Position numbers and translations under genes: made by a program. The notes beneath the pieces are model-generated. The model saw only the letters and a list, made by a program, of their open reading frames with translations, made no database searches and was not told where the DNA came from. Positions 24,132 through 47,373 of a stretch of DNA of 61,286 bases are shown in pieces. Source of the stretch: a virus (Duplodnaviria > Caudoviricetes); the IMG/VR virus record IMGVR_UViG_3300038551_000086, positions 1 to 61,286 of that record; one strand, written 5' to 3'. Every line of letters starts with the position of its first letter. Position 1 is the stretch's first letter.

Positions 24132-24626
24132 ATGAAATATCTGTATTTTGTTTTTATAGCGGTTCTTTTGTCTTTTACCGCAAACGCCCAGGTTGTCGGA
24201 ATTGATTTTAATACCTCTGTCCCCACCGGGGATTTCGGCAATACCGTCAATGTAGGCTTTAGCGGCGGGGTGCATGTGGAAGTTCCGGTATTCGGCATGA
24301 CGGGCGTTCTTTACGGCGGTTACGGCTTTTGGGATGAAAAGACTACCCCTATCCCCTCTTTCAGCGTTACCAACTTTCCGGTTATCCTTGCCGGGGCAAG
24401 AAGCTATTACGGGAAACTATATCTGTCAACTTTGGCGGGTATCTACCCGGTAAAAGTAAAGACCGAAGAAATTGAACTCTTAGAGGAAACTCAAGGCGCG
24501 ATACAGGTAGGCGCTGGCTATCTATTCCCGGTTAGTTTCTTCCATCTTGATTTATCAGGGAATTTCTTATGGACGCAGGATTACTCACAGGTTCAATTCG
24601 GCGTGGGTATTCTGCTTAACAAATAA
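24132..24626 (+). CDS. Small outer-membrane beta-barrel protein with Sec signal peptide (moron-like)
   Basis: Signal ...FTANA|Q; P.GDFG...GF.GG, GAGY, amphipathic strands, terminal QVQFGVGIL. Confidence 0.75.
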   Translation: MKYLYFVFIAVLLSFTANAQVVGIDFNTSVPTGDFGNTVNVGFSGGVHVEVPVFGMTGVLYGGYGFWDEKTTPIPSFSVTNFPVILAGARSYYGKLYLSTLAGIYPVKVKTEEIELLEETQGAIQVGAGYLFPVSFFHLDLSGNFLWTQDYSQVQFGVGILLNK

Positions 24627-30798: not shown

Positions 30799-31134
30799 AT
30801 GGCGAATACTTATCAGCAACTTGGACAGGCAAGGGAAAACAGCACGAATGCTGTAAGCGTGTATTCGCCAGGAGCAAGCGAAGAAGTAATTATTAAGCAG
30901 ATTATCGTAGCAAACACAAGCGGAGCAGCAGCAACGGTGAGAATGTTTCACGACAACGACGGTACAACTTACGACGAATCGACAACAGTAGGATGGGACG
31001 TAACGATCCCGGCAAACAGCGTTTGGGATCGAGGCGTAACAATCTGCATGAATAACGCGGCGGGTAACTTCGCTTACCGTTCAAGTGTTGCAAACGCTCT
31101 TACAATAACGATTTACGGCGTAGTAAAAACATGA
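30799..31134 (+). CDS. Small beta-sandwich virion protein
   Basis: VYSPGA..IIKQIIVANTS..ATVR...IPANS...ITIYG. Confidence 0.65.
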   Translation: MANTYQQLGQARENSTNAVSVYSPGASEEVIIKQIIVANTSGAAATVRMFHDNDGTTYDESTTVGWDVTIPANSVWDRGVTICMNNAAGNFAYRSSVANALTITIYGVVKT

Positions 31135-32429
31135 GAAAACTAATATACATTTTCCTGTTACTGAGCGCGGTTGCTTACGCGCAAAGCAGCATCATTTTAC
31201 CGGAGACCAAAGACCGGGAAGTAAAGGCGCAGGATTCCTTTTCGATTGACGCTTTCGGGCGGTGGCGGGTATCTGAACCCTTTACCCTGTTTGACAGCAA
31301 GCAGCTTACTGATTCTGCCGCCTTGTTTTGGGACGACCAGGAAACCGACAGTTCTATCTCTGAGTATGTGGATAATTACGCCGCTACCAAAATGAAAGTG
31401 GCGGATACCACATTGGGAACGCGCACCCGGCAGACCAAAATGAGATTCAACTACCAGCCGGGTAAATCTCAATTAATTCTCCTTACCTTTTCCAACATTA
31501 AGAGCAAAGCCGGGATTACCAAACAGGCGGGGTATTTCGACGACAGGAACGGGATATTTCTGGAAAGCCGCAATGACAGCGTTTTTGTAGTCCGCAGAAC
31601 CTACGTCACCGGGAGCGCGGTAGATAATGAGGTATATCAAACAAGTTGGAATCTCGACACCATGAAGGGCACAGGCACTTCCGGGGTGACGCTGGACTTT
31701 ACCAAAACTCAAATATTTTTAATCGACCTGGAATGGCTCGGAGTCGGGCGGGTAAGATGCGGTTTTGTGGTGGACGGGTTTATCTATTACGTGCATGAGT
31801 TTAACAATGCAAACAGTTTGAGCACCGTTTATATGAGCACGCCGAATTTGCCCTTGCGTTATGCAATCTCAAACGATTCAACGGCAATGGCAGACAGCAT
31901 GTATCATATTTGCTCAAGCGTTATCAGCGAGGGAGGGCAGCAGGAAAACGGGGTATTGCGCTACAAGTCCACCGAGGGAACGAATCAGAACGCCGACGTG
32001 GAAAACACCCTGTATTCGGTATTGGGAATAAAGCTAAAATCGACCCATTTAGGCTCGGTGGTGAAGTTGGTAAATGTAGCCTTGCAGGTGCATACGGCAT
32101 CTTCCAAATGTGAGTGGGTATTGTTATTAAACCCGACCATTGCCGGGGCTAAGACGTGGGCGGATGAAACCAACAGCGCGGTACAGACCTTTGCGGGAGT
32201 AACGGCAAATACGGTAACGGGCGGGTATGCGATAACCGGGGGATTTGTCGAAACCGGGGGCGTAGCGGCTGGCGGGGCGGGATCGGTGCAGAGTTCAATA
32301 CAAAACGCAATTTACTTAGGCTCAACCATCGCCGGGGTGTCGGATTCAATTGTTGTGGCGGTGAGACCGATTGGCGGAAGCACCCTTGTTGACGTGGAAG
32401 GGGCTTTGACATGGAGAGAATTACAATAG
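31131..32429 (+). CDS. Phage structural-family protein with Sec signal peptide
   Basis: DAFGRWRVS, YQPGKS, DLEWLGVGRVRCGF, CSSVISEGG motifs; signal ...AVAYA|Q. Confidence 0.72.
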   Translation: MRKLIYIFLLLSAVAYAQSSIILPETKDREVKAQDSFSIDAFGRWRVSEPFTLFDSKQLTDSAALFWDDQETDSSISEYVDNYAATKMKVADTTLGTRTRQTKMRFNYQPGKSQLILLTFSNIKSKAGITKQAGYFDDRNGIFLESRNDSVFVVRRTYVTGSAVDNEVYQTSWNLDTMKGTGTSGVTLDFTKTQIFLIDLEWLGVGRVRCGFVVDGFIYYVHEFNNANSLSTVYMSTPNLPLRYAISNDSTAMADSMYHICSSVISEGGQQENGVLRYKSTEGTNQNADVENTLYSVLGIKLKSTHLGSVVKLVNVALQVHTASSKCEWVLLLNPTIAGAKTWADETNSAVQTFAGVTANTVTGGYAITGGFVETGGVAAGGAGSVQSSIQNAIYLGSTIAGVSDSIVVAVRPIGGSTLVDVEGALTWRELQ

Positions 32430-34283: not shown

Positions 34284-37200
34284 TGCCCGAAGAAATCCTA
34301 AAAAAAGTCTATGAAGGCGGATCGAAGTATTACGATCTGGATGATTACGACACTTTCAAACGGAAGATGCAAGACCCCGCAATCAGACGGAAAGTTTATG
34401 ATGGGTTGTCTCAGTATTATCAACTTGACGATTTTGCTAAGTTTGAAACAGATATAGGGATTCAGGCGAAGCCAAAGGAAAGCGAAAAAGATATTGGTTT
34501 TTTTAAGGCAGTCGGAAAAGCGTTATATCCAACAAGGTCATTTAGCCCGGAGGTGGTTAAGAAAGAGGGCGGGGACATAATTTCTTTAAACACAGTTGGG
34601 GAAACAGCCTTGAACGCTCTGATGTTGCTATCTGATTATATTCCTTCATCTTTTTTCCCCACAAGAAGCGGACCATATAAGGGCGTTAAAGAGACCATCC
34701 CGCAGGCTATTGCAAGAAGAAAAGAAAGATGGGAAACACTTTCGCCGGAAGAACTACAAACATCAGGGCAGGCTTTTCATTATGCACAGGGCGGAGTAGT
34801 TCAACCTCTTAGCCCGGAGATGGCTGAGGGTGTGGGCAAACAAGCCACTGAATTTATAGCCGACCCCCTTTGGATTCCTGGAATCAAAATAACCAAAGCT
34901 GGAATAGGGGCAATCTCAAGGGCTATGAAAGCTATGAAGGCGGGTAAAGAAGCTGACGCAATTAGAATAATCGGCAAGATCGAAGGAGTTACCGCCAACC
35001 AAGCCGACGAGTATGTAAAATTCTGGACAGCGCCGGAGAATAAGGCGAAATTGGATGAAGCTGAGGCGATAGTCAACAAGAGAGCGTTTGATGCAGAGAA
35101 AGTCGGCAAGCCGGAACTTGAGGCTTTAAACGAACGGCTTAGAACACAGGAACGATTAACCCGCTTAGGAAAACAGACCGAGGAAATGGCTGGAAGCCGG
35201 GTGATACTCGGACCCAACGAAGAAAGAATAACTATCCGACCCGACGGAAGCCGGATTATCCGCGATAAATACGGCAATCTGATTGAAGAAATACCGTCCG
35301 CTAAAGCAACGCCCGAAGATGTAGCTGTGAGAGAGAAATTAAGAGAAGCGGCGGTAAGAGAGAAGAAGCCCGAAGCCCCTACCCCGCTTGAACAGCTGAC
35401 CACCAAAGTCAAAGCAGGTGAGGCTACCGGCGAAGAAATCAAGACCTTTGTCAAAGAAAGCGAACCCGCAACGGTTGAGAAAGCCGAGCAGATATTAAGA
35501 AAGGCGCACAAGGAAGCTAAGACACCCGAAGAAGGTTCTGACATTGCTAACGGCATTGACGTATTGACACAGGCAAGCGGTAAAAAGCCGAAAGTGCCTA
35601 CGCCAAAAGCGCCACCTAAAAAAGCTCCAATATCTAAAAAGGTAGAAAAAGAATATCAGGCGGGGAGGGCAAGCGCAGAAGCCAATATACAGGAAAGAGG
35701 GGAGCAATTCGCAAGGAATATGGCGAAAAAGCCGGGATATGGAGCAACAGAAGAAATACAAGCGTATTGGAAGGGCTATGCCGACGTGCTGGATGAAGCA
35801 AGAGCACCCGCAAAAAAAGTGGCAACGAAGGGAGAATTAACACCTTATGAAAAATCAGCCAAAGGCGCACCATCGGGAGCGCAGAAGGTGACAACTGCAA
35901 TCGGGCGCGATCCGAATTTGCGATTGCTTGACAGCGAGATTGAGGGAATATACGGCAAGGGTACGAAAGAAACCGAGGACTTGATTAGGAAAATTGGCGG
36001 TGGCAAAAGAACCCTTGACGATGTTTCCCGCGAATTGCAGGAAGCTGGAACGATTGCACCCGCACCGCAGGACTATAATTCACAGCACCTTATCAATTTG
36101 ATTACCGAAGATGCGCCGACAGTGGCAAAGGCAGAGCGACAGGCGGAGAAAGCGGCAGAGCAGGTTTTCGGCAAGACAGCGAAAAAAGCACCGAAGGTTC
36201 AAGAGCGACCTACTCCCCCAACGCCGACAGGGGCAAAAGAGAATATCGCTTACAACAATTTTAAAGAGGGCGACAAGTTTACTGTTGACGGTGAGGAATT
36301 TACTGTTACAAGCAAGATGATTGAGAATGACGGTGAAGTAGTAGGTGTCAGGCTTAAAGACCGAAAGAATTACGAGCAAGATTTAACAGATTGGAAGTCA
36401 GGTGTTGATATTGACGAAGGCAGTTTAAAGAAAGCGGGGGCAGAGCCTACACCTGCAATAGAACTTACAGCCTTTAAACCAAATCCCAAATTGCCAGATT
36501 GGTTAAATGATGCAATGTTGAGAGAGGGCAAAAATCCAAACAGACCTTTCAATGAGATAGATATTACAAATAAGTCGGTAAGAGATGCCATAGAAGCCGA
36601 TCCATCCTTGACAAGGAAAGAGAAAGATTCTTTGTTGAAAACCGGCTCAAGGCAAGAACCTACACCTGCACCGAAGGCGGAAACACCCGCTAAACCGGAG
36701 ATCGTCGAACCTGAGCAGGCTGGGACGGCAAAACAGGGCGTTTTAGGGGAAGGCGAGACTGCACCCACACCGAAAGCCGAGCCGATTGAACAAGTCACAA
36801 AAGGGAAAAAGGAGTTTCCAAAGAATTTCAGAGAATTATTGCCAGAAGAACAAGGGGCACTTGTCGTTGACACCTTAGAAAAAGGTGAAATAATAAAGGT
36901 TGGCAATACTGAATACAAAATAACAAGCAAGACTCCCAAGAAGATAACCATAAAAAATTTAAAAACAGGGAAATCCGGCACTATTTATAAATGGGGCAAT
37001 CAGAATGTTGCATGGATGAAAACAAAGAATGACGGGACAGCGACAGGATTTTTTAGAGACATTGAATCTGATATAACAAGAAGCCTTATAAGTGAAAAAA
37101 ATATATTCGGGCAAGTCAAAACAGAAGCCTACAATAGAGCAATAAAGAGGTTCGATGAATTAAAAAGTCAAGCAAAGCCCAAAGCCGAGCCTACCCCCAT

Positions 37201-40200
37201 CGAGCAGGTGACGAAGGGGAAAGAATTGAAAGAAGGCGAATCTATCCCCTTGCAGCGCGGCACGAAAGAGTTTACCGAGCAACAGGCGAAAGCGGGAAAG
37301 AAACCCGCAAAGCTCACCAAACAGCAAAAGAAAGAAAAGTTTGCTAAGAAGCTGGAAGAAGGAGAATACAAGGGGGATATGTTTGTTGAGGAAGGCAAAG
37401 CGCGACAGACTTCTTTGCTGGAAAAGGAAAAGCCGACACCGCTTGAACAGGTGGCAAAACCGACCGCAGAGTTGAATTATGCAGACAGATGGAATAATAG
37501 CCTAAAATTGGGCAGAAAGGTTGAACTCGTTAAGGGCGGGAAATGGGTAACGAATAAAGGCGGATTGTCAAAACTTGGTGAGAAAATTGCCGAATCAAAA
37601 TGGGAAGATATTTCACCCGCAGCGCAAAAAGTTTTACAACGGGAAATTGATAAATTTTACAAGACCGCTAAAGCTACACCCGTCGAACAACTCACCGCGC
37701 CTAAACAGACCTTCCGCCAGTTTGTCGAGAGCAAGGGTGTAGAGTGGGATCAGGTTAGCGGGGCAAGGAAAGATGAAGTGTTGCGGCAACGGTTGTTTGA
37801 CGAATTTCAAGGGAAGAAACCGGAAAAGGTGAATGTGACATTTACCAATCTGCAAGAGATACCGGGATCAAAAAAGGCTACGATAATGGTTGACCTGCCG
37901 AGCAAGACAACGGTAGGTTATGATGCTTCTCGTCATATCTTGAGTGATGCGGAAAAAGCGAAACTCAACAAGGCTATACAAAAAGGCGGATTTGAGGGCG
38001 CGGTTGAAGAACCGGAATTCTTGCTTATGATGAAAGATTACAAGCCCAAGAAAGCAAAGACAGGCAAAGAGTTTGCCGAGGGCTTACTTGACGCGGCGAA
38101 AAAGGATATATTCGGGCAGGAACTCGGCATAACTCCCGATCCTTACCGCAACCTGAAGAAGTTTCTCGATGAAAACAAGCTGAGGCTCACCGATGCCGAG
38201 CGCAAGAAACTGATGGATTTCGCCAGTGGCGTAGCAAAGCGCGGATTGCTTACAGCAGAGAAACGCCAGCAGTTGATTGATGAATATATTGCCAAAAACT
38301 TTACGCGGACACCGGAAGGGATACCGACAGCGAAAACGGGAGAAACGCCGCTCGAGAGGTTGACTAAGACAGAGCCGATAACTCCGGCAGTCACAGAAGC
38401 GACAGAGGGAACGGTAAAGAAAGTTAAGCCTAAGACTTTCCGACAGCTTGAGAATAAGTGGAAGCAGCCGATGGGCGAAGGGAAACCGACTACACCTGGC
38501 TATAATGTTGAGAAGATGCACCCGGCATTGAAAGACGAATTGCCGCAGATAATTGAGAATTTCCGGGAAGAATTTAACTTGATGCGCGGGGAACGGCTTA
38601 CCACCGAGCAAGCTATTGATTCGGCTATTAAATTCGCCGGGAATCTAACAGACGATGCAGTAATGACCCTGAAACGCTCAGACGTAACAAATGCGTCCCA
38701 CCTGCTCGGCGCAAGAATTTACGTCAACAACCGATTGCTTGAGATTTCCGACAAGTTGGCTGCCATACCGAAAGACGCAAGCGGTAAATTAATCGGTGAA
38801 ATTACCGCAGAGAATAAGCACGTTCTTGATATGTATATGAAAGTCCGATCATTGGGAACAGAAACAGCAAGGGCTTTGCGCTTTATGCAGATACCGATGG
38901 GCGACAACCTGATAAACGGGATGAAAAAATACCGTGACGTTCTTGCGAAAATTGATCCCAAGTCTGCTAAGGTATTATCGGATGTTATTGCCGATGCCGA
39001 AAAACTTCCCACTAAAACCGATGCAATACTATTCTGGTGGTATAACGGTATGTTGTCAAACCCGTTTACCGACCTTGCAAACATTACCGGGAACGCTTCA
39101 CATCTTACGTGGGAAATAATGACCAATATGGCTCATAAACCATCGTCCATAAAGCAAATGTTCAAGGGGCTTTGGGAAGGTTCAAAGGAAGGCGTGAAGC
39201 AAGCAAAGGCAATTTACAATCAGGAAAAAGAATTGTTAAGCAAGTTTTCCGGGGACATTGGACGGGCAAGGTATGACGTATATCCTAAGACGAAAGTCGG
39301 TAAATTTCTGAGGAGTACTCTACCAACAACCCGACTTGCGATGGAAGATGCAATATTTTCAAACATGGCTAAGCAAATGAGAATCGGGGTTGAATCTCCG
39401 ATACTGGCTAAAAAATTCGGCACTACCGTTGACGATGTTTTAGAAACCGTAAAGAATGTTATCGAAAATCCTGAGTTTGTAGCAGGAGCGAATGATAAGG
39501 TGTATAGAGACTTAGCTGAATACGCCGAGAAATACGCTGAATATTTGACCTTTAGAACGCCGCTAAAGAGCAAGTTCATGCAGGGAGCGCAGCAAACGCT
39601 TTGGGTTAAGCCGTTTATTCCCTTCCCGCGCGTAATGGCAAATATCGCAAAGGCGGGATTTAAAAACTCCCCGGCTGGAATTATAAAATTTTTCGGCAAA
39701 GATGCAAAGACGCTATCCGCTTTTGAACGGCAGGATATAGCAAGACGGGCTTTGGCGGGGACTGCGGTGTTTTCGGGATTGGGCACAATGATGGCGGCGG
39801 GAAAGATTGAGATAACCGGATCGGGACCGGAGAGCAAGAAAGAGCGCGAATTATGGGACAAGATGGGATACAAGCCGAATCACATCTACATCGTTGACGG
39901 TGACGGTTCAAAGACCGGAATATCCTATCAGAACATAAACCCGTTTAACGTGATTCTTGCGGTAATGGGTAACTGGCAGGATCAGTACCGTTTCGGGAAC
40001 AAGCTCACCGACGACGAGAAAACCCTTACCGAGAGGTTGAGTTATGCCCTTGCCGGGGCAGCGGCAACCATGACCGATCAGAGCTTTATGCAGGGCATAT
40101 CAAATCTATACGACTGGATCAGGTATAAAGACGAGGGATATTTAGAGGACTTCTTTACCAAACCGTTTATCCCAAACATTGTCGGATTTCCGCGAAACTT

Positions 40201-40714
40201 GCGGGAATATGTTAGCGGGGAAAAGCCGAGATATGAAGCAAGAACATGGTGGGAACGGCTTAAAAGGAGAGTCGGGTTGTATGAAGGGCTGATACCGACT
40301 TACAGCGCATACGGCGGACAGAAAGAAAGCGGTTATGAAAGATTCCCCTACTTCCCTACTGATATTGAGAGAGACCCGCTATTGGAAAATCTCAGGGGTA
40401 AAAATGCTTTAATCAGTGTTCCGTCAAAAAATACAAGCATAAACAACCGGAAGATAACCGATAAGGAATACTCTGATTATGTCAAGTTTAGCGGCAATGA
40501 AATAATCAGCAAACTAAGACAGAATCAGAACGAAATTTTGAAGATGAACGCGGAAGATACGCAGGACTACATTGACAACATCGTGAGAAATGCGCGGAGG
40601 AACGCAAAGGAAACCATTGAAAACCGATCAGGCGGGGCATTGCAGCAACTCACCAAACCGCGAAGCAGGACAAGACCGAGACCGACAAGACCAAGAAGGG
40701 CAAGAGTAAGATAA
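34283..40714 (+). CDS. Giant internal virion/ejection protein (large polyvalent-type, 2143 aa)
   Basis: Low-complexity K/E/A/P middle, helical C-terminal region (GMLSNP.T...N, FIPF.R..AN, ITGSGP), Arg-rich tail. Confidence 0.7.
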   Translation: MPEEILKKVYEGGSKYYDLDDYDTFKRKMQDPAIRRKVYDGLSQYYQLDDFAKFETDIGIQAKPKESEKDIGFFKAVGKALYPTRSFSPEVVKKEGGDIISLNTVGETALNALMLLSDYIPSSFFPTRSGPYKGVKETIPQAIARRKERWETLSPEELQTSGQAFHYAQGGVVQPLSPEMAEGVGKQATEFIADPLWIPGIKITKAGIGAISRAMKAMKAGKEADAIRIIGKIEGVTANQADEYVKFWTAPENKAKLDEAEAIVNKRAFDAEKVGKPELEALNERLRTQERLTRLGKQTEEMAGSRVILGPNEERITIRPDGSRIIRDKYGNLIEEIPSAKATPEDVAVREKLREAAVREKKPEAPTPLEQLTTKVKAGEATGEEIKTFVKESEPATVEKAEQILRKAHKEAKTPEEGSDIANGIDVLTQASGKKPKVPTPKAPPKKAPISKKVEKEYQAGRASAEANIQERGEQFARNMAKKPGYGATEEIQAYWKGYADVLDEARAPAKKVATKGELTPYEKSAKGAPSGAQKVTTAIGRDPNLRLLDSEIEGIYGKGTKETEDLIRKIGGGKRTLDDVSRELQEAGTIAPAPQDYNSQHLINLITEDAPTVAKAERQAEKAAEQVFGKTAKKAPKVQERPTPPTPTGAKENIAYNNFKEGDKFTVDGEEFTVTSKMIENDGEVVGVRLKDRKNYEQDLTDWKSGVDIDEGSLKKAGAEPTPAIELTAFKPNPKLPDWLNDAMLREGKNPNRPFNEIDITNKSVRDAIEADPSLTRKEKDSLLKTGSRQEPTPAPKAETPAKPEIVEPEQAGTAKQGVLGEGETAPTPKAEPIEQVTKGKKEFPKNFRELLPEEQGALVVDTLEKGEIIKVGNTEYKITSKTPKKITIKNLKTGKSGTIYKWGNQNVAWMKTKNDGTATGFFRDIESDITRSLISEKNIFGQVKTEAYNRAIKRFDELKSQAKPKAEPTPIEQVTKGKELKEGESIPLQRGTKEFTEQQAKAGKKPAKLTKQQKKEKFAKKLEEGEYKGDMFVEEGKARQTSLLEKEKPTPLEQVAKPTAELNYADRWNNSLKLGRKVELVKGGKWVTNKGGLSKLGEKIAESKWEDISPAAQKVLQREIDKFYKTAKATPVEQLTAPKQTFRQFVESKGVEWDQVSGARKDEVLRQRLFDEFQGKKPEKVNVTFTNLQEIPGSKKATIMVDLPSKTTVGYDASRHILSDAEKAKLNKAIQKGGFEGAVEEPEFLLMMKDYKPKKAKTGKEFAEGLLDAAKKDIFGQELGITPDPYRNLKKFLDENKLRLTDAERKKLMDFASGVAKRGLLTAEKRQQLIDEYIAKNFTRTPEGIPTAKTGETPLERLTKTEPITPAVTEATEGTVKKVKPKTFRQLENKWKQPMGEGKPTTPGYNVEKMHPALKDELPQIIENFREEFNLMRGERLTTEQAIDSAIKFAGNLTDDAVMTLKRSDVTNASHLLGARIYVNNRLLEISDKLAAIPKDASGKLIGEITAENKHVLDMYMKVRSLGTETARALRFMQIPMGDNLINGMKKYRDVLAKIDPKSAKVLSDVIADAEKLPTKTDAILFWWYNGMLSNPFTDLANITGNASHLTWEIMTNMAHKPSSIKQMFKGLWEGSKEGVKQAKAIYNQEKELLSKFSGDIGRARYDVYPKTKVGKFLRSTLPTTRLAMEDAIFSNMAKQMRIGVESPILAKKFGTTVDDVLETVKNVIENPEFVAGANDKVYRDLAEYAEKYAEYLTFRTPLKSKFMQGAQQTLWVKPFIPFPRVMANIAKAGFKNSPAGIIKFFGKDAKTLSAFERQDIARRALAGTAVFSGLGTMMAAGKIEITGSGPESKKERELWDKMGYKPNHIYIVDGDGSKTGISYQNINPFNVILAVMGNWQDQYRFGNKLTDDEKTLTERLSYALAGAAATMTDQSFMQGISNLYDWIRYKDEGYLEDFFTKPFIPNIVGFPRNLREYVSGEKPRYEARTWWERLKRRVGLYEGLIPTYSAYGGQKESGYERFPYFPTDIERDPLLENLRGKNALISVPSKNTSINNRKITDKEYSDYVKFSGNEIISKLRQNQNEILKMNAEDTQDYIDNIVRNARRNAKETIENRSGGALQQLTKPRSRTRPRPTRPRRARVR

Positions 40715-40741
40715 CAATTTAATTAAAGGAGCAAGAGGGCA

Positions 40742-41263
40742 ATGAAAACACTGTTATTTTTAATCTTAATGAGCGTAGCAATTTGGGCGCAAACGGCAGT
40801 CAAGACCGTCCCGCAGAGTCACGATTGGATAAGGATTTATGACGGGTTGCTTGGCGACAACGGCGACGGAGTGGACACTACCGATGCCTTTTCACCGAAG
40901 CAATGGGAAGGCGTACTAACCTTAGCTTGTGAAATCGACACGGGCGATGTTGACGTTAGCGGAACGCCGGATAGCTGCCTTTCGGTCTATTTCCAGATCA
41001 AGCGCAGATATGTATATCCGGGAAATCAAGCAGTTGACCAGGATTGGATGGGCTACTACGACGGAACCGATGTGACAAAGGTTAAGATTGATACCGTAGC
41101 GCGGAGCGTAATAAACACGGATGCTTGCTTGTTTTACATGAACCCGGCAGCCGAAATGTCAACCACCGGAGAGTGGGCTTGGGCGGATAGCATCAGGTTC
41201 ATTTTGGGAATCGGCGTAGGTGATAGTCTTGAGTCCGTAAAGTTAGACGTGGGAGGTCAATAA
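40742..41263 (+). CDS. Exported beta-rich protein
   Basis: Signal MKTLLFLILMSVAIWA|Q. Confidence 0.7.
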   Translation: MKTLLFLILMSVAIWAQTAVKTVPQSHDWIRIYDGLLGDNGDGVDTTDAFSPKQWEGVLTLACEIDTGDVDVSGTPDSCLSVYFQIKRRYVYPGNQAVDQDWMGYYDGTDVTKVKIDTVARSVINTDACLFYMNPAAEMSTTGEWAWADSIRFILGIGVGDSLESVKLDVGGQ

Positions 41264-41655
41264 TGGCACGTAACGTAAGACCACTATTCGGCACAGATTA
41301 CAGCTTTTCCGAATCTTCCGGCACTTCCAACATTAACGGCACGAAGATTGTCAACGATTATCCCCCTTCCGCTAACAACGTGGCGAGTATTTTCATCCAT
41401 TCTGACGGGGCAAGCGTGACCTCTATCGAGATGGGAATATATTGCCAATTTTGGAGTGGCGTGGATTGGGGACCGTTACACGCGGTTATCGACGAAAACG
41501 GGGCAGCAATCACGATAGACCCGTCTGAGGATGAAGATCGTGACGCAGACCTCTACGGGCAACCCTGGTGGAAGGAGAATGACGGATGGAGGATTGTCTT
41601 AACAAGGGCAAACCCGACAACCATAGCGGGACAGGCAACCGCAATAATAAGGTGA
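41263..41655 (+). CDS. Small beta-sandwich protein without signal peptide
   Basis: GGAGG RBS, TAATG coupling. Confidence 0.65.
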   Translation: MARNVRPLFGTDYSFSESSGTSNINGTKIVNDYPPSANNVASIFIHSDGASVTSIEMGIYCQFWSGVDWGPLHAVIDENGAAITIDPSEDEDRDADLYGQPWWKENDGWRIVLTRANPTTIAGQATAIIR

Positions 41656-41659
41656 AAAT

Positions 41660-42736
41660 ATGAAAAAATTAATCTTTCTGATTGTGCTTTTGGGGATTGC
41701 GGCGGAGGCGATAGCACAGACACCGCTACCCCGGAAAAGAACGCAGTGGCTCGATTTGTCGGAAGCGGTAAAAGACTCAATCCGGGCAAGCGGTTATGTT
41801 TTCCCTGTCCCATCCGATAGTGTTTCTCCCGATACGTCCTATGTATCTGCCGACTCCGGGCTTGGCGGGGGCGGATGGTTAGAGTTGGGTGATTCCGTAG
41901 GTGTGCACGTCAACGTGGACAGCGTGACGATTGACATTCTTAATGATACTCTCCGGGCGGATACATTGCGATTGGTTACAATCACCGCTTTGATTGACAC
42001 TATTGCAACACTATACCCGATACCGCACGATTCGCTTGATACCGACACAATTTGGGTTAGCGCCGATAGCGGTTTAGGAGGCGGAGGATCGGTTGAATTA
42101 GGCGATACCATAGGCGTTCACGTCAACGTAGATAGTGTAACAATAGACATTTTAAACGATACCTTGCGAGTTGATACAACCAGAATAGCAACCTTGCCCG
42201 ACGTGAGCGACAGTTCACAATACTATTACTGGCGTTCCGTCAGCCATGACCACTACCCCTCTTATGGCAACCTTGTCCCATGGGATTTGAACGACTACCA
42301 GACCGATCAAGACAGCGTATTTATCTGTTTCTGGCAGGAAGCGGCGACACTCAAGCCCTATATCGAAATTAAAGCGGATAGCGCAAGCACCGATAGCCAA
42401 TACGTTCACCTTGTTTATTCTTTCACTGCACCGAGAAATGTTTCCGCCATTAGCGATACTTTGTTTATTGTCGAGTTTAAAACATCGGTGGCGGATACCG
42501 ATTCGGTGGGTTGTGAGTTGCTTGTTTACGAGGGCACAACGGCAAGATACGCGACAGATACAATGACCGCTTCAGCGACATGGACGACAAAAGCGATTAC
42601 AAACGCTCAGGGTACATTATCCGACATCGTAAAAGAGGACAGATTTCAGTTGATTATAAGGGTGAAGGCTCTTAATTCCTCTGCGGCGGTTGACCCGACA
42701 ACCTGGATTTCACGGATCAGGGAAAGGTGGTGGTAA
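41660..42736 (+). CDS. Exported fibre-repeat protein, very D-S/T rich
   Basis: Signal ...AAEAIA|Q; two 42-aa repeats VSADSGLGGGG..ELGD..GVHVNVDSVTIDILNDTLR.DT. Confidence 0.75.
   Translation: MKKLIFLIVLLGIAAEAIAQTPLPRKRTQWLDLSEAVKDSIRASGYVFPVPSDSVSPDTSYVSADSGLGGGGWLELGDSVGVHVNVDSVTIDILNDTLRADTLRLVTITALIDTIATLYPIPHDSLDTDTIWVSADSGLGGGGSVELGDTIGVHVNVDSVTIDILNDTLRVDTTRIATLPDVSDSSQYYYWRSVSHDHYPSYGNLVPWDLNDYQTDQDSVFICFWQEAATLKPYIEIKADSASTDSQYVHLVYSFTAPRNVSAISDTLFIVEFKTSVADTDSVGCELLVYEGTTARYATDTMTASATWTTKAITNAQGTLSDIVKEDRFQLIIRVKALNSSAAVDPTTWISRIRERWW
41840..42178 (+). repeat. Internal coding duplication (41840-41965 and 42053-42178)
   Basis: Near-identical peptide, codons diverged at silent sites. 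Confidence 0.8.
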
Positions 42737-44646
42737 TGAGAGTTCTTTTATCGTTGCTTATACCCTGGCTTCTTTTCGCTCAAATAGGGGTAGTAGATAC
42801 CTTTTATACGGGTGACGGGGATGGCACGACAGACCCGCGTACCGTGTTAACTGCGACGGATAGCGTGAAACTTGTTCTCGTGACCGCCTGGAATGTTGCC
42901 CTGTTTCCCGGCTGGAAAACGCCGGATATGAGCAATGTGACGCAGAGTGTTACAGGCTTTGCAACTACAACATCCGGAGGTATAGTCATAACCGGAACAG
43001 GAAATACTCAAGTCCAAGTGGATAGTTCGTGGGATGGACTTAATATACTACATCATGTCACCGCCTTTTACGGTGAGTCTGTTCATCACGGAACATTTGC
43101 CGGAACAGGTTCGGGGGTTAGAGTGGAGACCGGATTTCAACCGAGATGGTTGTTTATTTCTGAACATGGCGTAGGAACAACTCAGGAATTTGCGGGATAT
43201 TGGTATACAACAATTGGTGATCTAACCCACAACGTGGACGGAACAGCGATAAATTGCAAACGTGACTCCACCGGATTTACTCTCGCAACCACTACCGGAG
43301 GTCATACCTACTATTGGGTAGCCTTTTCCAGCAGCCCAAACTACTTTTATGGGGAGTATCTTGGGGATGGGACAGATGATCGGTGGATAGACATAGATAA
43401 TGAGGTTGAGTTTTTATATGTGACCGCACCAAACGAAAGTGACGCAGGGGCGGGAGTGCAGGGAACATGGAAATCACGAGATATGTTCTTGATTGACACT
43501 TGCGGTATTATGTCAAATGATCCGGGATATGAGCAAGACCGGATACAGGAAATAGACAATTCAAATACTCAGTTTCAGGTTGGAACTGTATCTAATAACA
43601 AGAACGAAGTTTATCTTTATTGGGGGATAACAACCACTGTCGATACTGTTTTACCAAAAATTTATGTAGATATGAACTATAATGAGGTTCAAATAACCGG
43701 GAACGGAAATGCAACAAGGGCGGTTAGCCTCGGTTTTCAACCGGATGTAGTTTTTATTGCACCGAGTGAGGGTGCAACGTCAAGAGTATATGCAAAGTCA
43801 TATGAAATGGGCGGTGACAGCGCAATGGCTTTGTATGATTCCACCTTGAAATCAGACAGATGCACTATTACGTCAACGGGGATTACCCTCGGTAGTCATC
43901 TTAACAAGAATACAATAGTGTATAACATTTCCGCCTTTGACTCAGACACTAATGGAGTTTTAGCGGGAAGATATGTGGGAGATGGGACATTTAGGAGAGA
44001 AGTAAATTTAACGGAGAACTTTCGTCCAGCCGTTGTATTTACGATGGCTAACGACGATACCCTATTCGGAAAGGTGAAATCATTGAGTCTTGGCGGAATA
44101 GATACATTAAGCGCAAATACATACGACGATGCTCTCGGCGGGAATGGGATAAAAGTATTAAATCACAACAAGTTTATTACAGGAAATGGTATTTATATTA
44201 ATAAAAGCGGTATTACTTACCACTGGATAGCTTTTGCGGAAGGTCAATGGTTCGACGGGTATAACTTTGCCGGAAGCGGTTCGAGTAATGTTCAAAAGGC
44301 GATCAGCAACTTATTTCAAGGCGACATTTATACAATATATGAGCATGGAAATTATGTTGACAGCGAAGCACTTTGGAAAAATTTCGATTTCGCCGTGAAC
44401 AGCGCGGCGCAAATTGCGGGGGCATACGTAACAAATCAACTTGATACAGTAACCGCTACATATTTCGTAGTGGATGAAAACATAAACAGTAATTATCTTG
44501 GAATAGACTTTTATTGGTTTGCTCTTGGTGGATATGAAGCGCCGGGCGAGGAAACTCCGACCGGGCAAGACAGACGACAACCGTGTGATGGAAATGCGAC
44601 AATCCTTAACAAAGAGGGTGTACGGTGGAAAGACAAATACAAATAA
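42736..44646 (+). CDS. Exported protein with DUF7483-like phage fibre repeats
   Basis: Signal MRVLLSLLIPWLLFA|Q; repeated YTGDG/GFQP..VFI/GFT/TYYWVAF units. Confidence 0.72.
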   Translation: MRVLLSLLIPWLLFAQIGVVDTFYTGDGDGTTDPRTVLTATDSVKLVLVTAWNVALFPGWKTPDMSNVTQSVTGFATTTSGGIVITGTGNTQVQVDSSWDGLNILHHVTAFYGESVHHGTFAGTGSGVRVETGFQPRWLFISEHGVGTTQEFAGYWYTTIGDLTHNVDGTAINCKRDSTGFTLATTTGGHTYYWVAFSSSPNYFYGEYLGDGTDDRWIDIDNEVEFLYVTAPNESDAGAGVQGTWKSRDMFLIDTCGIMSNDPGYEQDRIQEIDNSNTQFQVGTVSNNKNEVYLYWGITTTVDTVLPKIYVDMNYNEVQITGNGNATRAVSLGFQPDVVFIAPSEGATSRVYAKSYEMGGDSAMALYDSTLKSDRCTITSTGITLGSHLNKNTIVYNISAFDSDTNGVLAGRYVGDGTFRREVNLTENFRPAVVFTMANDDTLFGKVKSLSLGGIDTLSANTYDDALGGNGIKVLNHNKFITGNGIYINKSGITYHWIAFAEGQWFDGYNFAGSGSSNVQKAISNLFQGDIYTIYEHGNYVDSEALWKNFDFAVNSAAQIAGAYVTNQLDTVTATYFVVDENINSNYLGIDFYWFALGGYEAPGEETPTGQDRRQPCDGNATILNKEGVRWKDKYK

Positions 44647-46169
44647 TCTTACTTATGCTTTTACTTTCGGTATTTGTAAAAGCGCAGATATTTACTGAGA
44701 CCTTTAACAGTTTCACCTGGTCTTGGGCGTATGGGACAGCAGGTTGGAACTTCGGTGGAGCAGCATCTGGGTATGATACTGTAAACTCTGGCACATATAA
44801 CTTAACAAGATCAGCAGGATTCTCTGTAAATTGGGCATCAGAAACAGTTTCTGGTGGCATAATAGACTCGGCTGGAACATATATAACATTCGACGGATCA
44901 AGTGAGTATATGACCAGCACAAATGCTATTTTCAACCCCGGAACAGATGATTTCTGGATTTTAGGTGCACTAAAAACACCCGCGTCTATGCCAACTTCCG
45001 CTAAATACATAATTAACAAATACAGAGCAGCCACAGACAATGGATGGTCGATATTTTTTTATGATAATATCGTTTATTCCAAAATAGAACATGATCCGGT
45101 AATTGCCCCAGGCGTGACTGTTCCCGCAGATAAATCTATCTTTTTCGCCAACTTAATGGACAGAAGCGGGAACGGAACTTTCAGGGTTTGGACAGGAGAT
45201 AGTTTGTTAGCCATTGGAACGGCAGATATAAGTAGCAAATCAGGAGTTAATATTACATCAGCTACCGCTATGACCATAGGAACGTATGCGTATACTCCTG
45301 CCAACAATGAGTTTGACGGTTGGATGGATGCTCTTTGGTTTGGACGTGGGACTTTACCAACTCTTGAGCAAATATGTGCCGAGTTCTTTTTAGCTGATGG
45401 ATGGTATTCGGATACAGATAGTTCCGGGGCGATAAGGGATAACTTTGGTTGGCATCAGGGAGTGACTTGCGGAGTAGCTACGCCACAAATAACAATTGCT
45501 ATAATAGGAACAGAAGGATTGCAACCGGCAGATTATACAGATTACGCAACTATTACAGGTGACTCTACTACTTACACTATACAGTTCCCCTTAATTGACA
45601 GTTTAAATAGCGATGCAATTAGATTCGATATTGACAGCGGGGATATGAGCGATATTAACCATGCCCTACCTGATACTGTTTTTCAAGAAGGTTATGGTTT
45701 ACAAGTTAAGTTTGATTGTTGGTCTAATCCTGGAACTACCAGCAATTATTATGTGTTGTTTGATAATGTAGTTGTGACGACATATCTTCTTAATCCTGAA
45801 ATAAGTTCAAGCCCCGCAAGCAAAAATTTTGGCAATATCGTTGTAGGTGACAGTTCATCTCAAGTGTTTACAATAAGCAACACAGGAGCAGACCCGCTAA
45901 CGGTTACGGATATTAATTGGGTTACAGCCGCACAGGTGAGCGTTTCCGATACCGCTTTTACGGTAGATACAAGCGGGACGCAGAATATAACAGTGTGGTT
46001 TAAGCCTCAGTCAATCGGTGCGAAATTGGATACATTGACAATCGTCAACAATGATCAGGATGAAGGGAACTTTACAATTCCATTATCCGCAAACGGAATC
46101 TTGCCGACAGCAGGAAACACATTTAGAAAATATCCAAGCGCAAACAGCAATAAATTCAAAGGTTGGTGA
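44625..46169 (+). CDS. Exported LamG-like plus Ig-like (choice-of-anchor D/ASH-type) protein
   Basis: Signal ...SVFVKA|Q; FDGSSEY...IIN.Y..GWSI...FDGWMD; PEISSSP.S.NFGNI.VG..FTISNTG..PLTV...LTIVNND.DE. Confidence 0.75.
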   Translation: MERQIQIILLMLLLSVFVKAQIFTETFNSFTWSWAYGTAGWNFGGAASGYDTVNSGTYNLTRSAGFSVNWASETVSGGIIDSAGTYITFDGSSEYMTSTNAIFNPGTDDFWILGALKTPASMPTSAKYIINKYRAATDNGWSIFFYDNIVYSKIEHDPVIAPGVTVPADKSIFFANLMDRSGNGTFRVWTGDSLLAIGTADISSKSGVNITSATAMTIGTYAYTPANNEFDGWMDALWFGRGTLPTLEQICAEFFLADGWYSDTDSSGAIRDNFGWHQGVTCGVATPQITIAIIGTEGLQPADYTDYATITGDSTTYTIQFPLIDSLNSDAIRFDIDSGDMSDINHALPDTVFQEGYGLQVKFDCWSNPGTTSNYYVLFDNVVVTTYLLNPEISSSPASKNFGNIVVGDSSSQVFTISNTGADPLTVTDINWVTAAQVSVSDTAFTVDTSGTQNITVWFKPQSIGAKLDTLTIVNNDQDEGNFTIPLSANGILPTAGNTFRKYPSANSNKFKGW

Positions 46170-46441
46170 TGCAATTCATTCAATGGGCTTTTCTGGGCAA
46201 CGTCTATCTCTTTATGCACATGTTCGGCGGTGCGCTCGGAATGAAAATATTCATGCGCTATGTCCGAGCCGACACCGCATTTCTCATTGTCGTTTTGATC
46301 ACTTTAGTTTGGGAAGTCGGTGAGCTTGTTTATCAATACATAATCGAGTTTGACAGTTACGAATCACCGGAGCATTTCTTAGCGGATGCCTTCGGTGACA
46401 TATTCGGCGCGGTTCTAATGGCTTTCATAATCTGGATATAA
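46169..46441 (+). CDS. Small integral membrane protein (H..GG/WE..E/D...D motif)
   Basis: HMFGG, WEVGE, DAFGDIFG in hydrophobic helices. Confidence 0.65.
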   Translation: MQFIQWAFLGNVYLFMHMFGGALGMKIFMRYVRADTAFLIVVLITLVWEVGELVYQYIIEFDSYESPEHFLADAFGDIFGAVLMAFIIWI

Positions 46442-46468
46442 AACCTCAATCATCTCCCCTCCCCTAAA

Positions 46469-46502
46469 GCAAAAAGCCCGGACTGAACATCCGGGCTTTT
46501 GC
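46469..46502. terminator. Bidirectional intrinsic terminator ending the late operon
   Basis: AAAAAGCCCGGA-loop-TCCGGGCTTTT between convergent genes. Confidence 0.85.
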
Positions 46503-46998
46503 AAATCCATATCACGTTTTCAACAGAATATTCCCGCATTAAATTTTACAGGAGATATTCATTGGTTAATTAATTTAAAAGCAATACCTATATCAAATTT
46601 AACATTAAAACAGGCTCCTGCTAACCTCTTGCATCACCACCTTTCAAAACTCGTTAATCCGCGTTGCCTTGCCGAAGGGCGGAACTTATGCAGGCTGTGT
46701 CGTCGCGAACATATCATCCGATATATCCCCTTTTTGCCCGACACTGGCAATGTTTCGCAATCAGAGTGCTAAAAACTTTGTATTATCATTGCTAAGTGAC
46801 CTATCCCCCACCCTATCGCCAGCCACAGGGCAACGGCGAATATCACGCCGAGGGGGATTAGGATTATGTTTCTGATAGTGTTCATTTCAGCGTAATTTTC
46901 TTAAAAGTTCTTCAAGGGCTTCAATTTGCTTTTTATCCTTCCCGATTTTTCTCAATTCCCTTAATTTATCCTCCAATTCCGCTATTCTCCATTTTTCT

Positions 46999-47328
46999 CT
47001 AATGGTTTTTTGGGGTGATCTCGGTAGTCCCATGTTGTACCTCAATTTTCGATTTTAAGTTGTCAATTTCGTTGCTCAGGGAATCCGCGACACCGGCAAA
47101 CAAGAGCAAAGTAAAAGCTCAAACTGTCATCGCGATCCAGAAACGCAAAGCCCATTTCCTGGCTTCTGTTTGCCAATCAATTTCCGTTTTTGACTGTGAC
47201 ATTGTTGTCACAATTCTATCCCTTGCATCAGGTAAATTATCAATCTGATGAGCGTCATAAAACGATTGTTCAGCTTTCAATTTGCTCACCTTCAATTTGC
47301 TCAATTTACTATCAGTAAATTTACTCAA
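46999..47328 (-). pseudogene. Small membrane protein interrupted by in-frame TGA at 47119-47121
   Basis: KWALRFWIAMTV*AFTLLLFAGVADSLSNEIDNLKSKIE reads through as one TM helix plus coil. Confidence 0.45.
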
Positions 47329-47370
47329 CTCTCAGTTTACTCAATTTACCGCAATTTACAAGTAAATTGA
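47278..47370. repeat. Array of CAATTTRC-like motifs in both orientations
   Basis: Copies at 47278, 47293, 47302, 47333, 47342, 47352, palindrome AGTAAATTTACT 47314-25, inverted 47362. Confidence 0.8.
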
Positions 47371-47373
47371 TGG

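What the first reader, a model, noticed from the sequence alone, without database searches (positions are those of the whole stretch)
41660..42736. Extreme density of D-(S/T)-(A/I/L/V/M/T) O-glycosylation sequons in an exported fibre protein
Seen (hand count): 25 of about 36 Asp residues are followed by S/T, and 18 match the strict motif in 358 aa. Other exported ORFs give about 4/173 (40742), 8/636 (42736), 8/514 (44625) and 7/432 (31131). The unsignalled neighbour 41263 has 0/130 and the nozzle about 7/930; the MCP has about 4/336, so enrichment is overwhelming only for 41660 and modest for the others. Known: this is the sequon of the Bacteroidota general periplasmic O-glycosylation system. 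Inference: export is selected in order to obtain host glycans, giving a glycan-coated fibre for shielding, adhesion, stability or host mimicry.
Basis: partly seen in the sequence, partly recalled or inferred. Interest (0 to 1): 0.88.

Follow-up and report, generated by a model that had tools for sequence, protein, structure and literature searches.

The report
Sequon-packed exported phage fibre protein
A wetland phage routes its fibre-like, sugar-binding tail proteins through the host's secretion pathway and has packed them with the short motif that Bacteroidota-type bacteria use to attach sugars to exported proteins, which suggests that the host coats them with glycans.

Summary
The count is exact. 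ORF 41660-42736 (358 aa) has 36 Asp, 25 followed by S/T, and 18 strict D-[ST]-[AILVMT] motifs against 3.3±1.7 in shuffles (0 of 5000 reach 18). An internal duplication adds 6; without it the count is 12 vs 2.3.

The enrichment is motif-specific: reversed, E- and N-versions are not enriched. It tracks export. Signal-bearing relatives total 220 vs 77 expected, unsignalled ones 328 vs 313. In the window, signal/TM-like ORFs total 48 vs 15.2, all others 32 vs 31.7.

The protein has a signal peptide with Gln at +1, two copies of a common tail-fibre shaft repeat, and a CBM4/61-like β-sandwich. It is predicted to trimerise. Sequons arose by placing Asp before conserved Ser/Thr.

A second family (ORF 31131) shows the same gain, only in its signal-bearing lineage.

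Glycosylation is inferred, not shown. The host is unresolved: Shine-Dalgarno use argues against class Bacteroidia. How periplasmic proteins would join a cytoplasmically assembled virion is unknown. Other phages export neighbouring proteins without sequon enrichment, so "exported in order to get glycans" is not supported as stated.

The parts
41660..42736 (+). CDS, 358 aa: exported fibre-like protein with 18 strict D-[ST]-[AILVMT] sequons (25 D-[ST])
   Evidence: 9 metagenomic homologs
41660..41716 (+). Signal peptide, residues 1-19 (MKK / hydrophobic core / A-I-A), with predicted SPI cleavage before Gln20 (Q-rule type)
   Evidence: Read from the translation; hydrophobicity 3.5. All 9 homologs have an N-terminal hydrophobic leader followed by small-x-small-Q. 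No SignalP was available.
41807..41980 (+). Shaft repeat copy 1 (about residues 50-107), 5 strict sequons
   Evidence: profile hits to multi-repeat tail-fibre proteins
42014..42187 (+). Shaft repeat copy 2 (about residues 119-176), 6 strict sequons; the copy conserved in the whole family
42212..42733 (+). C-terminal beta-sandwich domain (residues ~185-358), CBM4/CBM61-like; 5 strict sequons at loop/strand junctions; conserved C-terminal E-R-W-[WY]
   Evidence: AF2 block pLDDT 72-93 apart from one 54 block; VIA-align Z 12.9, rmsd 2.6 A, 132 aligned residues to 2xom_A; Foldseek; sequon positions
40742..41263 (+). Neighbouring ORF with a Q-type signal peptide, 4 sequons vs 1.1 expected
41263..41655 (+). 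Unsignalled neighbour, 0 sequons among 11 Asp (internal contrast)
42727..44646 (+). Neighbouring ORF with a Q-type signal peptide (ATG at 42736), 8 sequons vs 3.0; Atlas lead to viral DUF7483 lectin-like proteins
44625..46169 (+). Neighbouring ORF with a Q-type signal peptide, 8 sequons vs 3.2; ASH/HYDIN-type Ig-like domain at residues 393-482
31131..32429 (+). ORF with a Q-type signal peptide in the tail module, 7 sequons vs 1.9; phrog_1645 'virion structural protein'; two lectin-like beta-sandwich domains
24132..24626 (+). ORF with a Q-type signal peptide in the head/neck module, 0 sequons (only 5 Asp, 0.3 expected)

Best explanation
ORF 41660-42736 encodes a late-operon phage protein. It is exported by Sec, cleaved by signal peptidase I before Gln20, and forms a homotrimeric fibre made of two shaft repeats and a CBM-like sugar-binding head. 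In this lineage, Asp residues have been placed in front of Ser/Thr positions that already existed. This created about one D-S/T-hydrophobic site per 20 residues.

The best reading is that these sites are acceptor sequons for a host periplasmic O-glycosylation system of the Bacteroidota D-(S/T)-x type, so the fibre and its signal-bearing neighbours leave the cell glycan-coated and pyroglutamyl-capped. I infer that they are the phage's peripheral receptor-binding proteins and that they meet the cytoplasmically built particle only when the inner membrane is breached at lysis.

Shown: the motif excess, its specificity, its link to Q-type signal peptides, and the domain architecture. Inferred: glycan attachment, virion membership and the assembly route.
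For: 1. Excess. 18 vs 3.3 expected (0 of 5000 shuffles reach 18); 12 vs 2.3 after removing the duplicated copy.

2. Direction and residue specificity. Reversed, E- and N-motifs are not enriched in any of the 10 family members, while all 10 are enriched for the forward motif (z 4.6-8.7).

3. Link to export among relatives. Of 80 proteins in the profile search, 25 with a hydrophobic N-terminus total 220 vs 77.1 expected (median z 4.8). The 55 without total 328 vs 313 (median z -0.4). Mann-Whitney P=3.5e-6.

4. Repeat level. The 9 shaft units of the close family carry 2-5 sequons each; 226 units from unsignalled fibre proteins average 0.46.

5. Sequon creation. In the [LIV]G-x-[ST] element, x is Asp in 9 of 9 close-family units but in 14 of 349 unsignalled ones (Gly in 140). 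In the D-x-L-R-V-K element, x is S/T in 9 of 9 close-family units, 12 of 14 units from distant Q-signal proteins, and 27 of 105 unsignalled units.

6. Conservation. S and T interchange at conserved sequon columns, for example DTI/DSI/DTV at position 149.

7. Independent family. Among the 120 best homologs of ORF 31131, only 5 have a signal peptide, all of the xQSS type. They total 30 sequons vs 10.1 expected; the 115 unsignalled total 241 vs 235.4. The gains occur as ATT->DTT, DGT->DST and TTV->DSV.

8. Window-wide. Signal/TM-like ORFs total 48 vs 15.2 (n=9); the rest total 32 vs 31.7 (n=48).

9. Host type. 6 of 6 signal peptides in the window have Gln at +1. This rule holds at a mean of 71% in Bacteroidetes and 77% in Ignavibacterium album, and is low in most Chlorobi (passages of PMC5837995).

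10. Non-Q signal peptides show no excess. 50 such ORFs in 52 other viral loci total 61 vs 50.2, and L012 has 2 vs 2.0.

11. Fibre nature. The shaft repeat occurs 1-15 times in large unsignalled tail-fibre-like proteins. For a trimer of residues 45-358, ESMFold2 ipSAE was 0.84 against a best control of 0.00, pLDDT 87-88, with runs sharing >=95% of contacts. This mark was reached by 20 of 30 solved pairs and 1 of 23 single chains, and the calibration used two copies, not three. The head is CBM4/61-like (Z 12.9).

12. Late-operon placement. Gene junctions are 28 nt, overlap, 4 nt, overlap, overlap, directly after the internal virion protein gene.

13. Head-domain sites. None of the 5 head-domain acceptor residues is in the predicted trimer interface, and all 5 lie at loop/strand junctions.
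Against: - There is no experimental evidence of a glycan, of signal-peptide cleavage, or of presence in virions.
- The host is unknown. 24 of 57 ORFs (42%) have a Shine-Dalgarno core. The same pipeline gives 5 of 47 for Bacteroides phage B40-8 and 4 of 50 for Cellulophaga phage phi38:1, and 11 of 25 for a gammaproteobacterial phage. The host is therefore probably not class Bacteroidia, where the D-S/T system is documented (passages of PMC11632369).
- A portal homolog at 79% identity carries the label Planctomycetota MAG, on a 3.8-kb contig.
- P0042, a 1915-aa protein with a Q-type signal peptide, is not enriched (9 vs 7.9). ORF 24132 has 0 sequons, although only 0.3 are expected.
- 10 of the 12 shaft acceptor residues are listed as touching another chain in the predicted trimer. 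They could be inaccessible after folding.
- The AF2 monomer is low-confidence over the shaft (pLDDT below 50 for residues 43-181).
- Signal peptides were judged by a hydrophobicity rule and by eye, not by SignalP.
- Sequences within each family are related, so the counts are not independent events.
- My three literature searches found no precedent for periplasmic proteins joining a tailed virion.
Confidence: 0.55

Rival explanations
1. The protein is exported, and probably glycosylated, but it is not part of the virion. In this reading the signal-bearing lectin-like proteins act in the periplasm, on the cell surface or in the lysate. They could mask the phage's own glycan receptor (superinfection exclusion, or protection of progeny from adsorbing to debris), or they could remodel the envelope.
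For: SPI substrates without a T9SS C-terminal domain or a lipobox should stay periplasmic, away from cytoplasmic assembly; no Por_Secre_tail hit was found. The CBM- and lectin-like folds would suit binding of envelope glycans. P. gingivalis phages encode Q-rule signal-peptide proteins that the authors propose modify the host surface (passages of PMC10367356).
Against: The genes are translationally coupled to the late structural operon. ORF 31131 belongs to phrog_1645 'virion structural protein', and its homologs are annotated as virion structural proteins in cyanophages and HMO-2011. The shaft repeats are those of tail-fibre proteins. Apart from the 175-aa ORF 30269 with weak tail-fibre hits, no unsignalled receptor-binding candidate was found in the module. 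If all five signal-bearing ORFs outside the head/neck region were decoys, the phage would have almost no fibre.
Confidence: 0.2
2. The D-S/T-hydrophobic triplets are a structural device rather than a glycosylation signal, for example Asx/ST turns capping beta-strands or metal-binding sites. Proteins that fold in the periplasm would favour them.
For: In the C-terminal domain all 5 sites sit at loop-to-strand junctions. The generic unsignalled shaft repeat already contains one such triplet (VDDSTIE), which gives 0.46 sites per unit. Some unsignalled fibres reach z 2.7-3.2 (P0020, P0034). 10 of the 12 shaft acceptors touch other chains in the predicted trimer.
Against: The same folds in unsignalled relatives do without the extra Asp: 328 vs 313 in the repeat family and 241 vs 235 in the 31131 family. 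Signal-bearing phage ORFs with non-Gln cleavage sites are not enriched (61 vs 50.2), so periplasmic folding alone does not explain the excess. S and T interchange while Asp is kept. The same excess appears in unrelated folds: shaft, CBM-like, lectin-like and Ig-like.
Confidence: 0.12
3. The host is not a Bacteroidota member. In this reading the motif serves another host-specific process acting on exported proteins, such as a different O-glycosylation system, a protease-protection rule or another modification.
For: Shine-Dalgarno use resembles that of non-Bacteroidia hosts. There is a Planctomycetota label on a 79% portal homolog. Outside Bacteroidetes, Q-values form a continuum (PMC5837995). 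Glycans have been assigned to Ignavibacteria strains, with no motif given (passage of bioRxiv 10.64898/2026.04.15.718822).
Against: The enriched triplet is exactly the published Bacteroidetes sequon, including its third-position preference (18 of 25; PMC11632369). 6 of 6 signal peptides have Gln at +1. In two cultured Bacteroidia phages, the membrane-anchored ORF after the endolysin is likewise enriched (5 vs 0.8 and 3 vs 0.3).
Confidence: 0.1

Closest known systems
Substrates of the Bacteroidetes general protein O-glycosylation system (e.g. Tannerella S-layer proteins)
   Same: Sec-exported proteins with many D-(S/T)-(A/I/L/V/M/T) sites; Asp at -1 is the fixed feature and L/V/T/A/I are preferred at +1 (passages of PMC11632369). 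The window protein fits both preferences.
   Different: The protein is phage-encoded, has fibre architecture, has an unidentified host that is probably outside class Bacteroidia, and has no glycan data. Its density of 5.0 sites per 100 aa is the highest among the proteins counted.
Q-rule signal-peptide proteins of Porphyromonas gingivalis phages (PMC10367356)
   Same: Phage genes whose signal peptides expose Gln after SPI cleavage, read as adaptation to the host's secretion system (passages).
   Different: Those are five genes of unknown function, proposed to modify the host outer membrane. The word stem 'glycosyl' occurs 0 times in that text. Here the proteins are fibre- or lectin-like, sit in the tail module and are sequon-rich.
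Phage tail-fibre proteins built from the '...TAGxGLxGGGxVxLGGS...VNVDDSTIEI..DALRVKD' shaft repeat (P0015-P0017, P0020, P0024, P0027 etc.)
   Same: Homologous repeat unit (profile E down to 2.6e-41); trimer predicted.
   Different: Those have 3-15 units, no signal peptide, about 0.46 sequons per unit and other C-termini. Several end in what I recall as an S74-type chaperone sequence, which was not tested here.
CBM4 / CBM61 beta-sandwich carbohydrate-binding modules and distal domains of phage tailspikes and fibres
   Same: Fold of residues ~190-358: 2xom_A Z 12.9, 4bj0_A Z 12.8, CBA120 TSP4 Z 11.2, Kp7 gp52 fibre Z 10.6.
   Different: Sequence identity is 6-13%, ligand-binding residues were not examined, and no Pfam CBM hit was found. 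Fold likeness shows no function.
Glycosylated mycobacteriophage virions (recalled from memory, no call)
   Same: Glycans on phage structural proteins.
   Different: As I recall, those use phage-encoded cytoplasmic glycosyltransferases. Here the proposal is hijacking of a host periplasmic system through Sec export.

Membership tests
Substrate of Bacteroidota-type general O-glycosylation | Exported across the inner membrane (Sec signal peptide) | tested here: met
   MKK + 12-residue hydrophobic core + AIA|Q; hydrophobicity score 3.5; conserved in 9 of 9 homologs. Judged by rule of thumb, not by SignalP.
Substrate of Bacteroidota-type general O-glycosylation | D-(S/T)-(A/I/L/V/M/T) sequon present | tested here: met
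   18 strict and 25 D-[ST] sites; 5-fold excess
Substrate of Bacteroidota-type general O-glycosylation | Host possesses the system (Bacteroidota) | tested here: inconclusive
   Gln at +1 in 6 of 6 signal peptides supports it. Shine-Dalgarno use of 42% vs 8-11% in Bacteroidia phages and a Planctomycetota label speak against class Bacteroidia. No host genome was found.
Substrate of Bacteroidota-type general O-glycosylation | Glycan attached to the Ser/Thr | not testable with these tools
   Needs glycoproteomics
Bacteroidetes Q-rule SPI substrates | Gln immediately after the signal-peptidase I site; no lipobox Cys | tested here: met
   AIA|Q20; no Cys in residues 1-30
Phage tail fibre | Shaft repeats homologous to those of known fibre proteins | tested here: met
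   weak hits to phrog_15277 and phrog_15005
Phage tail fibre | Homotrimer | tested here: met
   Prediction only: ipSAE 0.84 vs best control 0.00; mark reached by 20 of 30 solved pairs and 1 of 23 single chains; pLDDT 87-88; contacts agree >=95%
Phage tail fibre | Present in the virion / has a tail-attachment domain | not testable with these tools
   Only about 25 residues lie between the cleavage site and the first repeat, and no attachment domain was recognised
T9SS cargo | C-terminal sorting domain (Por_Secre_tail) | tested here: not met
   No Pfam hit at E<=0.01; the C-terminus is the last strand of the beta-sandwich
CBM4/CBM61-like module | Beta-sandwich jelly-roll fold | tested here: met
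   Z 12.9, rmsd 2.6 A, 132 aligned residues; Foldseek E 3e-5
CBM4/CBM61-like module | Carbohydrate-binding residues or function | not tested
   No ligand-site comparison was made

The most novel reading that the evidence does not exclude
A tailed phage sends its whole peripheral adsorption apparatus through the host Sec pathway. This apparatus comprises five fibre- or lectin-like proteins of unrelated folds. In the periplasm the host caps them with pyroglutamate and coats them with O-glycans, and they dock onto cytoplasmically assembled particles only at lysis. The sequon signature would also extend D-S/T O-glycosylation to a Shine-Dalgarno-using lineage outside class Bacteroidia, such as an Ignavibacteria-like host. 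Signal-peptide gene arrays at the same position in other viral contigs (L029, L030) suggest that periplasmic maturation of fibres is a wider, unrecognised assembly route.
Probability: 0.3. Interest if true: 0.92.

Novelty: new variant of a known kind. Interest (0 to 1): 0.8.

Why it matters
If the sites are used, this would be a phage that borrows a host's general periplasmic glycosylation system to decorate its receptor-binding proteins. That has consequences for stability, immune or protease shielding, and host recognition.

It would also require an unconventional step in tailed-phage assembly, because periplasmic parts would have to join cytoplasmic particles.

The sequence signature (Q-type signal peptide plus sequon excess) is cheap to compute. 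It could serve as a host-phylum marker for uncultured phages and as a probe for where D-S/T glycosylation exists.

My full-text searches found no paper linking phage structural proteins to the Bacteroidetes O-glycosylation system. Supplementary files could not be seen.

Tried and rejected
- **Cultured relatives.** tblastn of the fibre protein, the portal and the MCP against 50,697 phage records found no match. The terminase and integrase gave only distant, uninformative hits at 20-27% identity to phages of Actinomycetota and Bacillota.
- **Genomic context of the 9 homologs.** Scans of viral, genome and metagenome contigs with the protein, alignment A1 or P0002 found none. I therefore could not check whether the homologs sit in the same module. 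ORFs 42736 and 44625 have no relatives in viral contigs.
- **Host search.** Alignment A3 against genome contigs returned only one Fermentibacteria MAG contig with an unsignalled homolog. Control genomes carry no handles.
- **Expression.** No RNA holder is listed. The five DNA holders are wetland metagenomes, and two of them may be the source.
- **Promoters and terminators.** The scan of 33000-48000 found 22 and 18 sites against 22.5 and 18.0 in shuffles, so it is uninformative.
- **tRNAs.** None were found.
- **Lipoprotein and T9SS routes.** Both were rejected: there is no lipobox Cys and no C-terminal sorting domain.
- **Protein Atlas.** Feature hits are below 0.9 and serve as leads only.
- **Crude cleavage rule.** It may misplace sites. 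At least 3 of the 50 'non-Q' rows (in L017, L029, L030) can be read with Gln at +1.
Full report
**What the window is.** The window is a complete 61,286-bp viral record with direct terminal repeats. It was recovered in wetland metagenomes. It encodes the following:
- a P22-type portal and a major capsid protein;
- an SU10-type adaptor;
- a 2143-aa internal virion protein (phrog_6651);
- an integrase, a GT2 glycosyltransferase and a sulfotransferase.

No cultured phage is close. The portal, the MCP and the fibre protein give no tblastn hit in 50,697 phage records.

ORF 41660-42736 (358 aa) has 36 Asp. Of these, 25 are followed by Ser/Thr and 18 match D-[ST]-[AILVMT]. Composition shuffles give 3.3±1.7, and 0 of 5000 reach 18 (maximum 11).

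Residues ~64-103 and ~135-174 are a duplication, with 34 of 40 aa identical but only 71% nucleotide identity. It is therefore an old duplication kept under purifying selection. Removing one copy leaves 12 vs 2.3 (z 6.9, 0 of 5000). The non-repeat parts alone give 6 vs 1.55 (8 of 5000).

The excess is motif-specific. The reversed motif and the Glu- and Asn-versions are at expectation in all 10 family members.

**What the protein is.**
- Residues 1-19 are a classical signal peptide (MKK, hydrophobic core, A-I-A) with Gln at +1.
- A profile search of 1.84 billion representatives gave 75 hits at E<=0.001.
- Residues ~50-107 and ~119-176 are two copies of a shaft repeat. The same repeat occurs 1-15 times in large proteins that look like tail fibres and have no signal peptide.
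- Residues ~185-358 form a family-specific domain that AlphaFold2 models well (block pLDDT 72-93, with one 54 block). It is a β-sandwich like CBM61/CBM4: 2xom_A Z 12.9, rmsd 2.6 Å over 132 residues. It also resembles distal domains of phage tailspikes and fibres (Z 10.6-11.2).
- As a monomer the shaft is modelled poorly (pLDDT below 50). As three copies of residues 45-358 the model is confident: ipSAE 0.84 vs best control 0.00, pLDDT 87-88, with runs agreeing in >=95% of contacts. That mark was reached by 20 of 30 solved pairs and 1 of 23 single chains, and the calibration used two copies. The result supports a trimeric fibre but does not prove it.

- *Whole proteins.* Among the 80 proteins of the profile search, the 25 with a hydrophobic N-terminus total 220 sequons vs 77.1 expected. 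The 55 without total 328 vs 313 (P=3.5e-6). The exceptions with a leader but no excess are P0019, P0041 and P0071 (leaders not of the Gln type), P0035 (not a real leader) and P0042 (Gln type, 9 vs 7.9).
- *Repeat units.* The 9 units of the close family carry 2-5 sequons each. The 226 units from unsignalled proteins average 0.46, mostly from the generic VDDSTIE triplet.
- *How the sites arose.* Asp was placed before a conserved Ser/Thr, or Ser/Thr after a conserved Asp. In [LIV]G-x-[ST], x is Asp in 9 of 9 close-family units and in 14 of 349 unsignalled ones. In D-x-LRVK, x is S/T in 9 of 9 close-family units, 12 of 14 units from distant Gln-type proteins, and 27 of 105 unsignalled units.
- *Conservation.* Within the family, sequon columns are conserved with S/T interchange.

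**An independent family behaves the same way.** ORF 31131 belongs to phrog_1645 'virion structural protein'. Its homologs are so annotated in T4-like cyanophages and in phage HMO-2011. Its model has two lectin-like β-sandwiches, and the top Foldseek hit is the receptor-binding domain of phage TM4 gp23.

Of its 120 best homologs, only the 5 closest (72-100% identity) carry a signal peptide, all ending xQSS. They total 30 sequons vs 10.1 expected. The 115 unsignalled homologs total 241 vs 235.4. The gains occur at ATT→DTT, DGT→DST and TTV→DSV. These five sequences represent a single lineage, so this counts as one evolutionary event.

A further homolog in viral contig L012 acquired a signal peptide of another type (AFA|S). 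It has 2 vs 2.0.

**Window-wide and across other phages.**
- In the window, signal- or TM-bearing ORFs total 48 vs 15.2 (n=9). All other ORFs total 32 vs 31.7 (n=48).
- In 52 other viral loci, 50 signal-like ORFs with non-Gln sites total 61 vs 50.2, and 596 other ORFs total 485 vs 541.
- In Bacteroides phage B40-8 and Cellulophaga phage phi38:1, no structural ORF is signal-bearing. The membrane-anchored ORF after the endolysin is enriched in both (5 vs 0.8 and 3 vs 0.3).

**Host.** All 6 signal peptides in the window, and the leaders of the 9 homologs, place Gln after a small-x-small site. This 'Q-rule' averages 71% in Bacteroidetes and is 77% in Ignavibacterium album. It is below 9% in most Chlorobi (passages of PMC5837995).

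The phage nevertheless uses Shine-Dalgarno sites. 24 of 57 ORFs have one, against an 11% background. The same pipeline gives 11% and 8% for the two Bacteroidia phages, 20% for a Rhodothermus phage and 44% for a gammaproteobacterial phage. Ribosomes of Bacteroidia do not recognise SD sequences (abstract of PMC10798248).

The host is therefore more likely a Q-rule lineage outside class Bacteroidia. One portal homolog at 79% identity is labelled as a Planctomycetota MAG, on a 3.8-kb contig. The D-(S/T)-x motif is documented for classical Bacteroidetes, with Asp fixed and L/V/T/A/I preferred at the third position (passages of PMC11632369). Whether it operates in the true host is unknown.

**Mechanism.**
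- *Shown:* the export signal, the sequon excess tied to Gln-type export, the fibre/lectin architecture, and tight coupling to the late operon (gaps of 28 nt and 4 nt, otherwise overlaps).
- *Inferred:* the host O-glycosylates these sites in the periplasm, and the proteins are the phage's receptor-binding parts and join particles at lysis.

Arrays of signal-bearing ORFs occur next to the 31131 homolog in other contigs without sequon excess (five in L029, six in L030). Export is therefore not explained by glycan acquisition. The sequons look like a host-specific overlay on exported proteins.

**Literature.** P. gingivalis phages are reported to encode Q-rule signal-peptide proteins of unknown function, and glycosylation is not mentioned in that text (passages). 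Three full-text searches found nothing that links phage structural proteins to this glycosylation system or to Sec export of tail fibres. Supplements were not available.

**Verdict.** The novelty lies in a phage-encoded, sequon-saturated, exported fibre set. Glycan attachment, host identity and virion membership remain to be tested.

Noticed in passing
window:7388-10044: A QueC-like PP-loop ORF, a GT2 glycosyltransferase (E 5e-27) and a sulfotransferase (E 2e-12) sit just upstream of the integrase (10470-11381). They may modify a glycan or the envelope, which could bear on which glycan the exported proteins receive.
   Followed up: no
window, all ORF starts: 24 of 57 ORFs have a Shine-Dalgarno core at -20..-4. 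The same pipeline gives 5 of 47 and 4 of 50 for two phages of class Bacteroidia. This conflicts with a classical Bacteroidia host despite Q-rule signal peptides.
   Followed up: partly
L030:2254-7864; L029:11227-18955; L012:1580-3998; L027:2308-3483: Other IMG/VR contigs carry runs of 2-6 signal-peptide ORFs directly downstream of (and, in L012, including) the homolog of ORF 31131. Their cleavage sites are of the AxA|A type and overall they show no sequon excess. Exported tail-module proteins may be a wider phenomenon. They have no sequence similarity to the window's signal-bearing ORFs.
   Followed up: partly
L058:15801-16406 (Bacteroides phage B40-8); L059:44184-44783 (Cellulophaga phage phi38:1): In both phages the membrane-anchored ORF right after the annotated endolysin is enriched in the sequon (5 vs 0.8, z 5.2; 3 vs 0.3, z 5.0). 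These ORFs may be spanin-like, which is my guess. This hints that periplasm-exposed proteins of Bacteroidia phages generally carry the sequon.
   Followed up: no
window:34283-40714: The 2143-aa internal virion protein contains several copies of a short K/E/P-rich motif of the type (A/K)(E/T)PTP(I/L)EQ(V/L)T, seen by eye in the translation. The C-terminal part matches phrog_6651. It has few sequons (3 vs 4.4).
   Followed up: no
window:42722-42733 (C-terminus of the fibre protein): The extreme C-terminus E-R-W-[WY] is invariant or nearly so in all 10 family members (E355, R356, W357). Its role is unknown.
   Followed up: no
window:51730-52938: Mgm101-type (Rad52-like) single-strand annealing protein, Pfam E 1e-48.
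   Followed up: no
P0203 (portal homolog, 79% identity): This is the only named close relative of any core gene. It is labelled 'MAG: portal protein [Planctomycetota bacterium]' on a 3.8-kb contig. P0197, an unsignalled 31131 homolog, carries the same phylum label.
   Followed up: no
window:24132-24626: A sixth ORF with a Q-type signal peptide (164 aa) lies between the capsid and adaptor genes. It has no family hit and no sequon (5 Asp).
   Followed up: no
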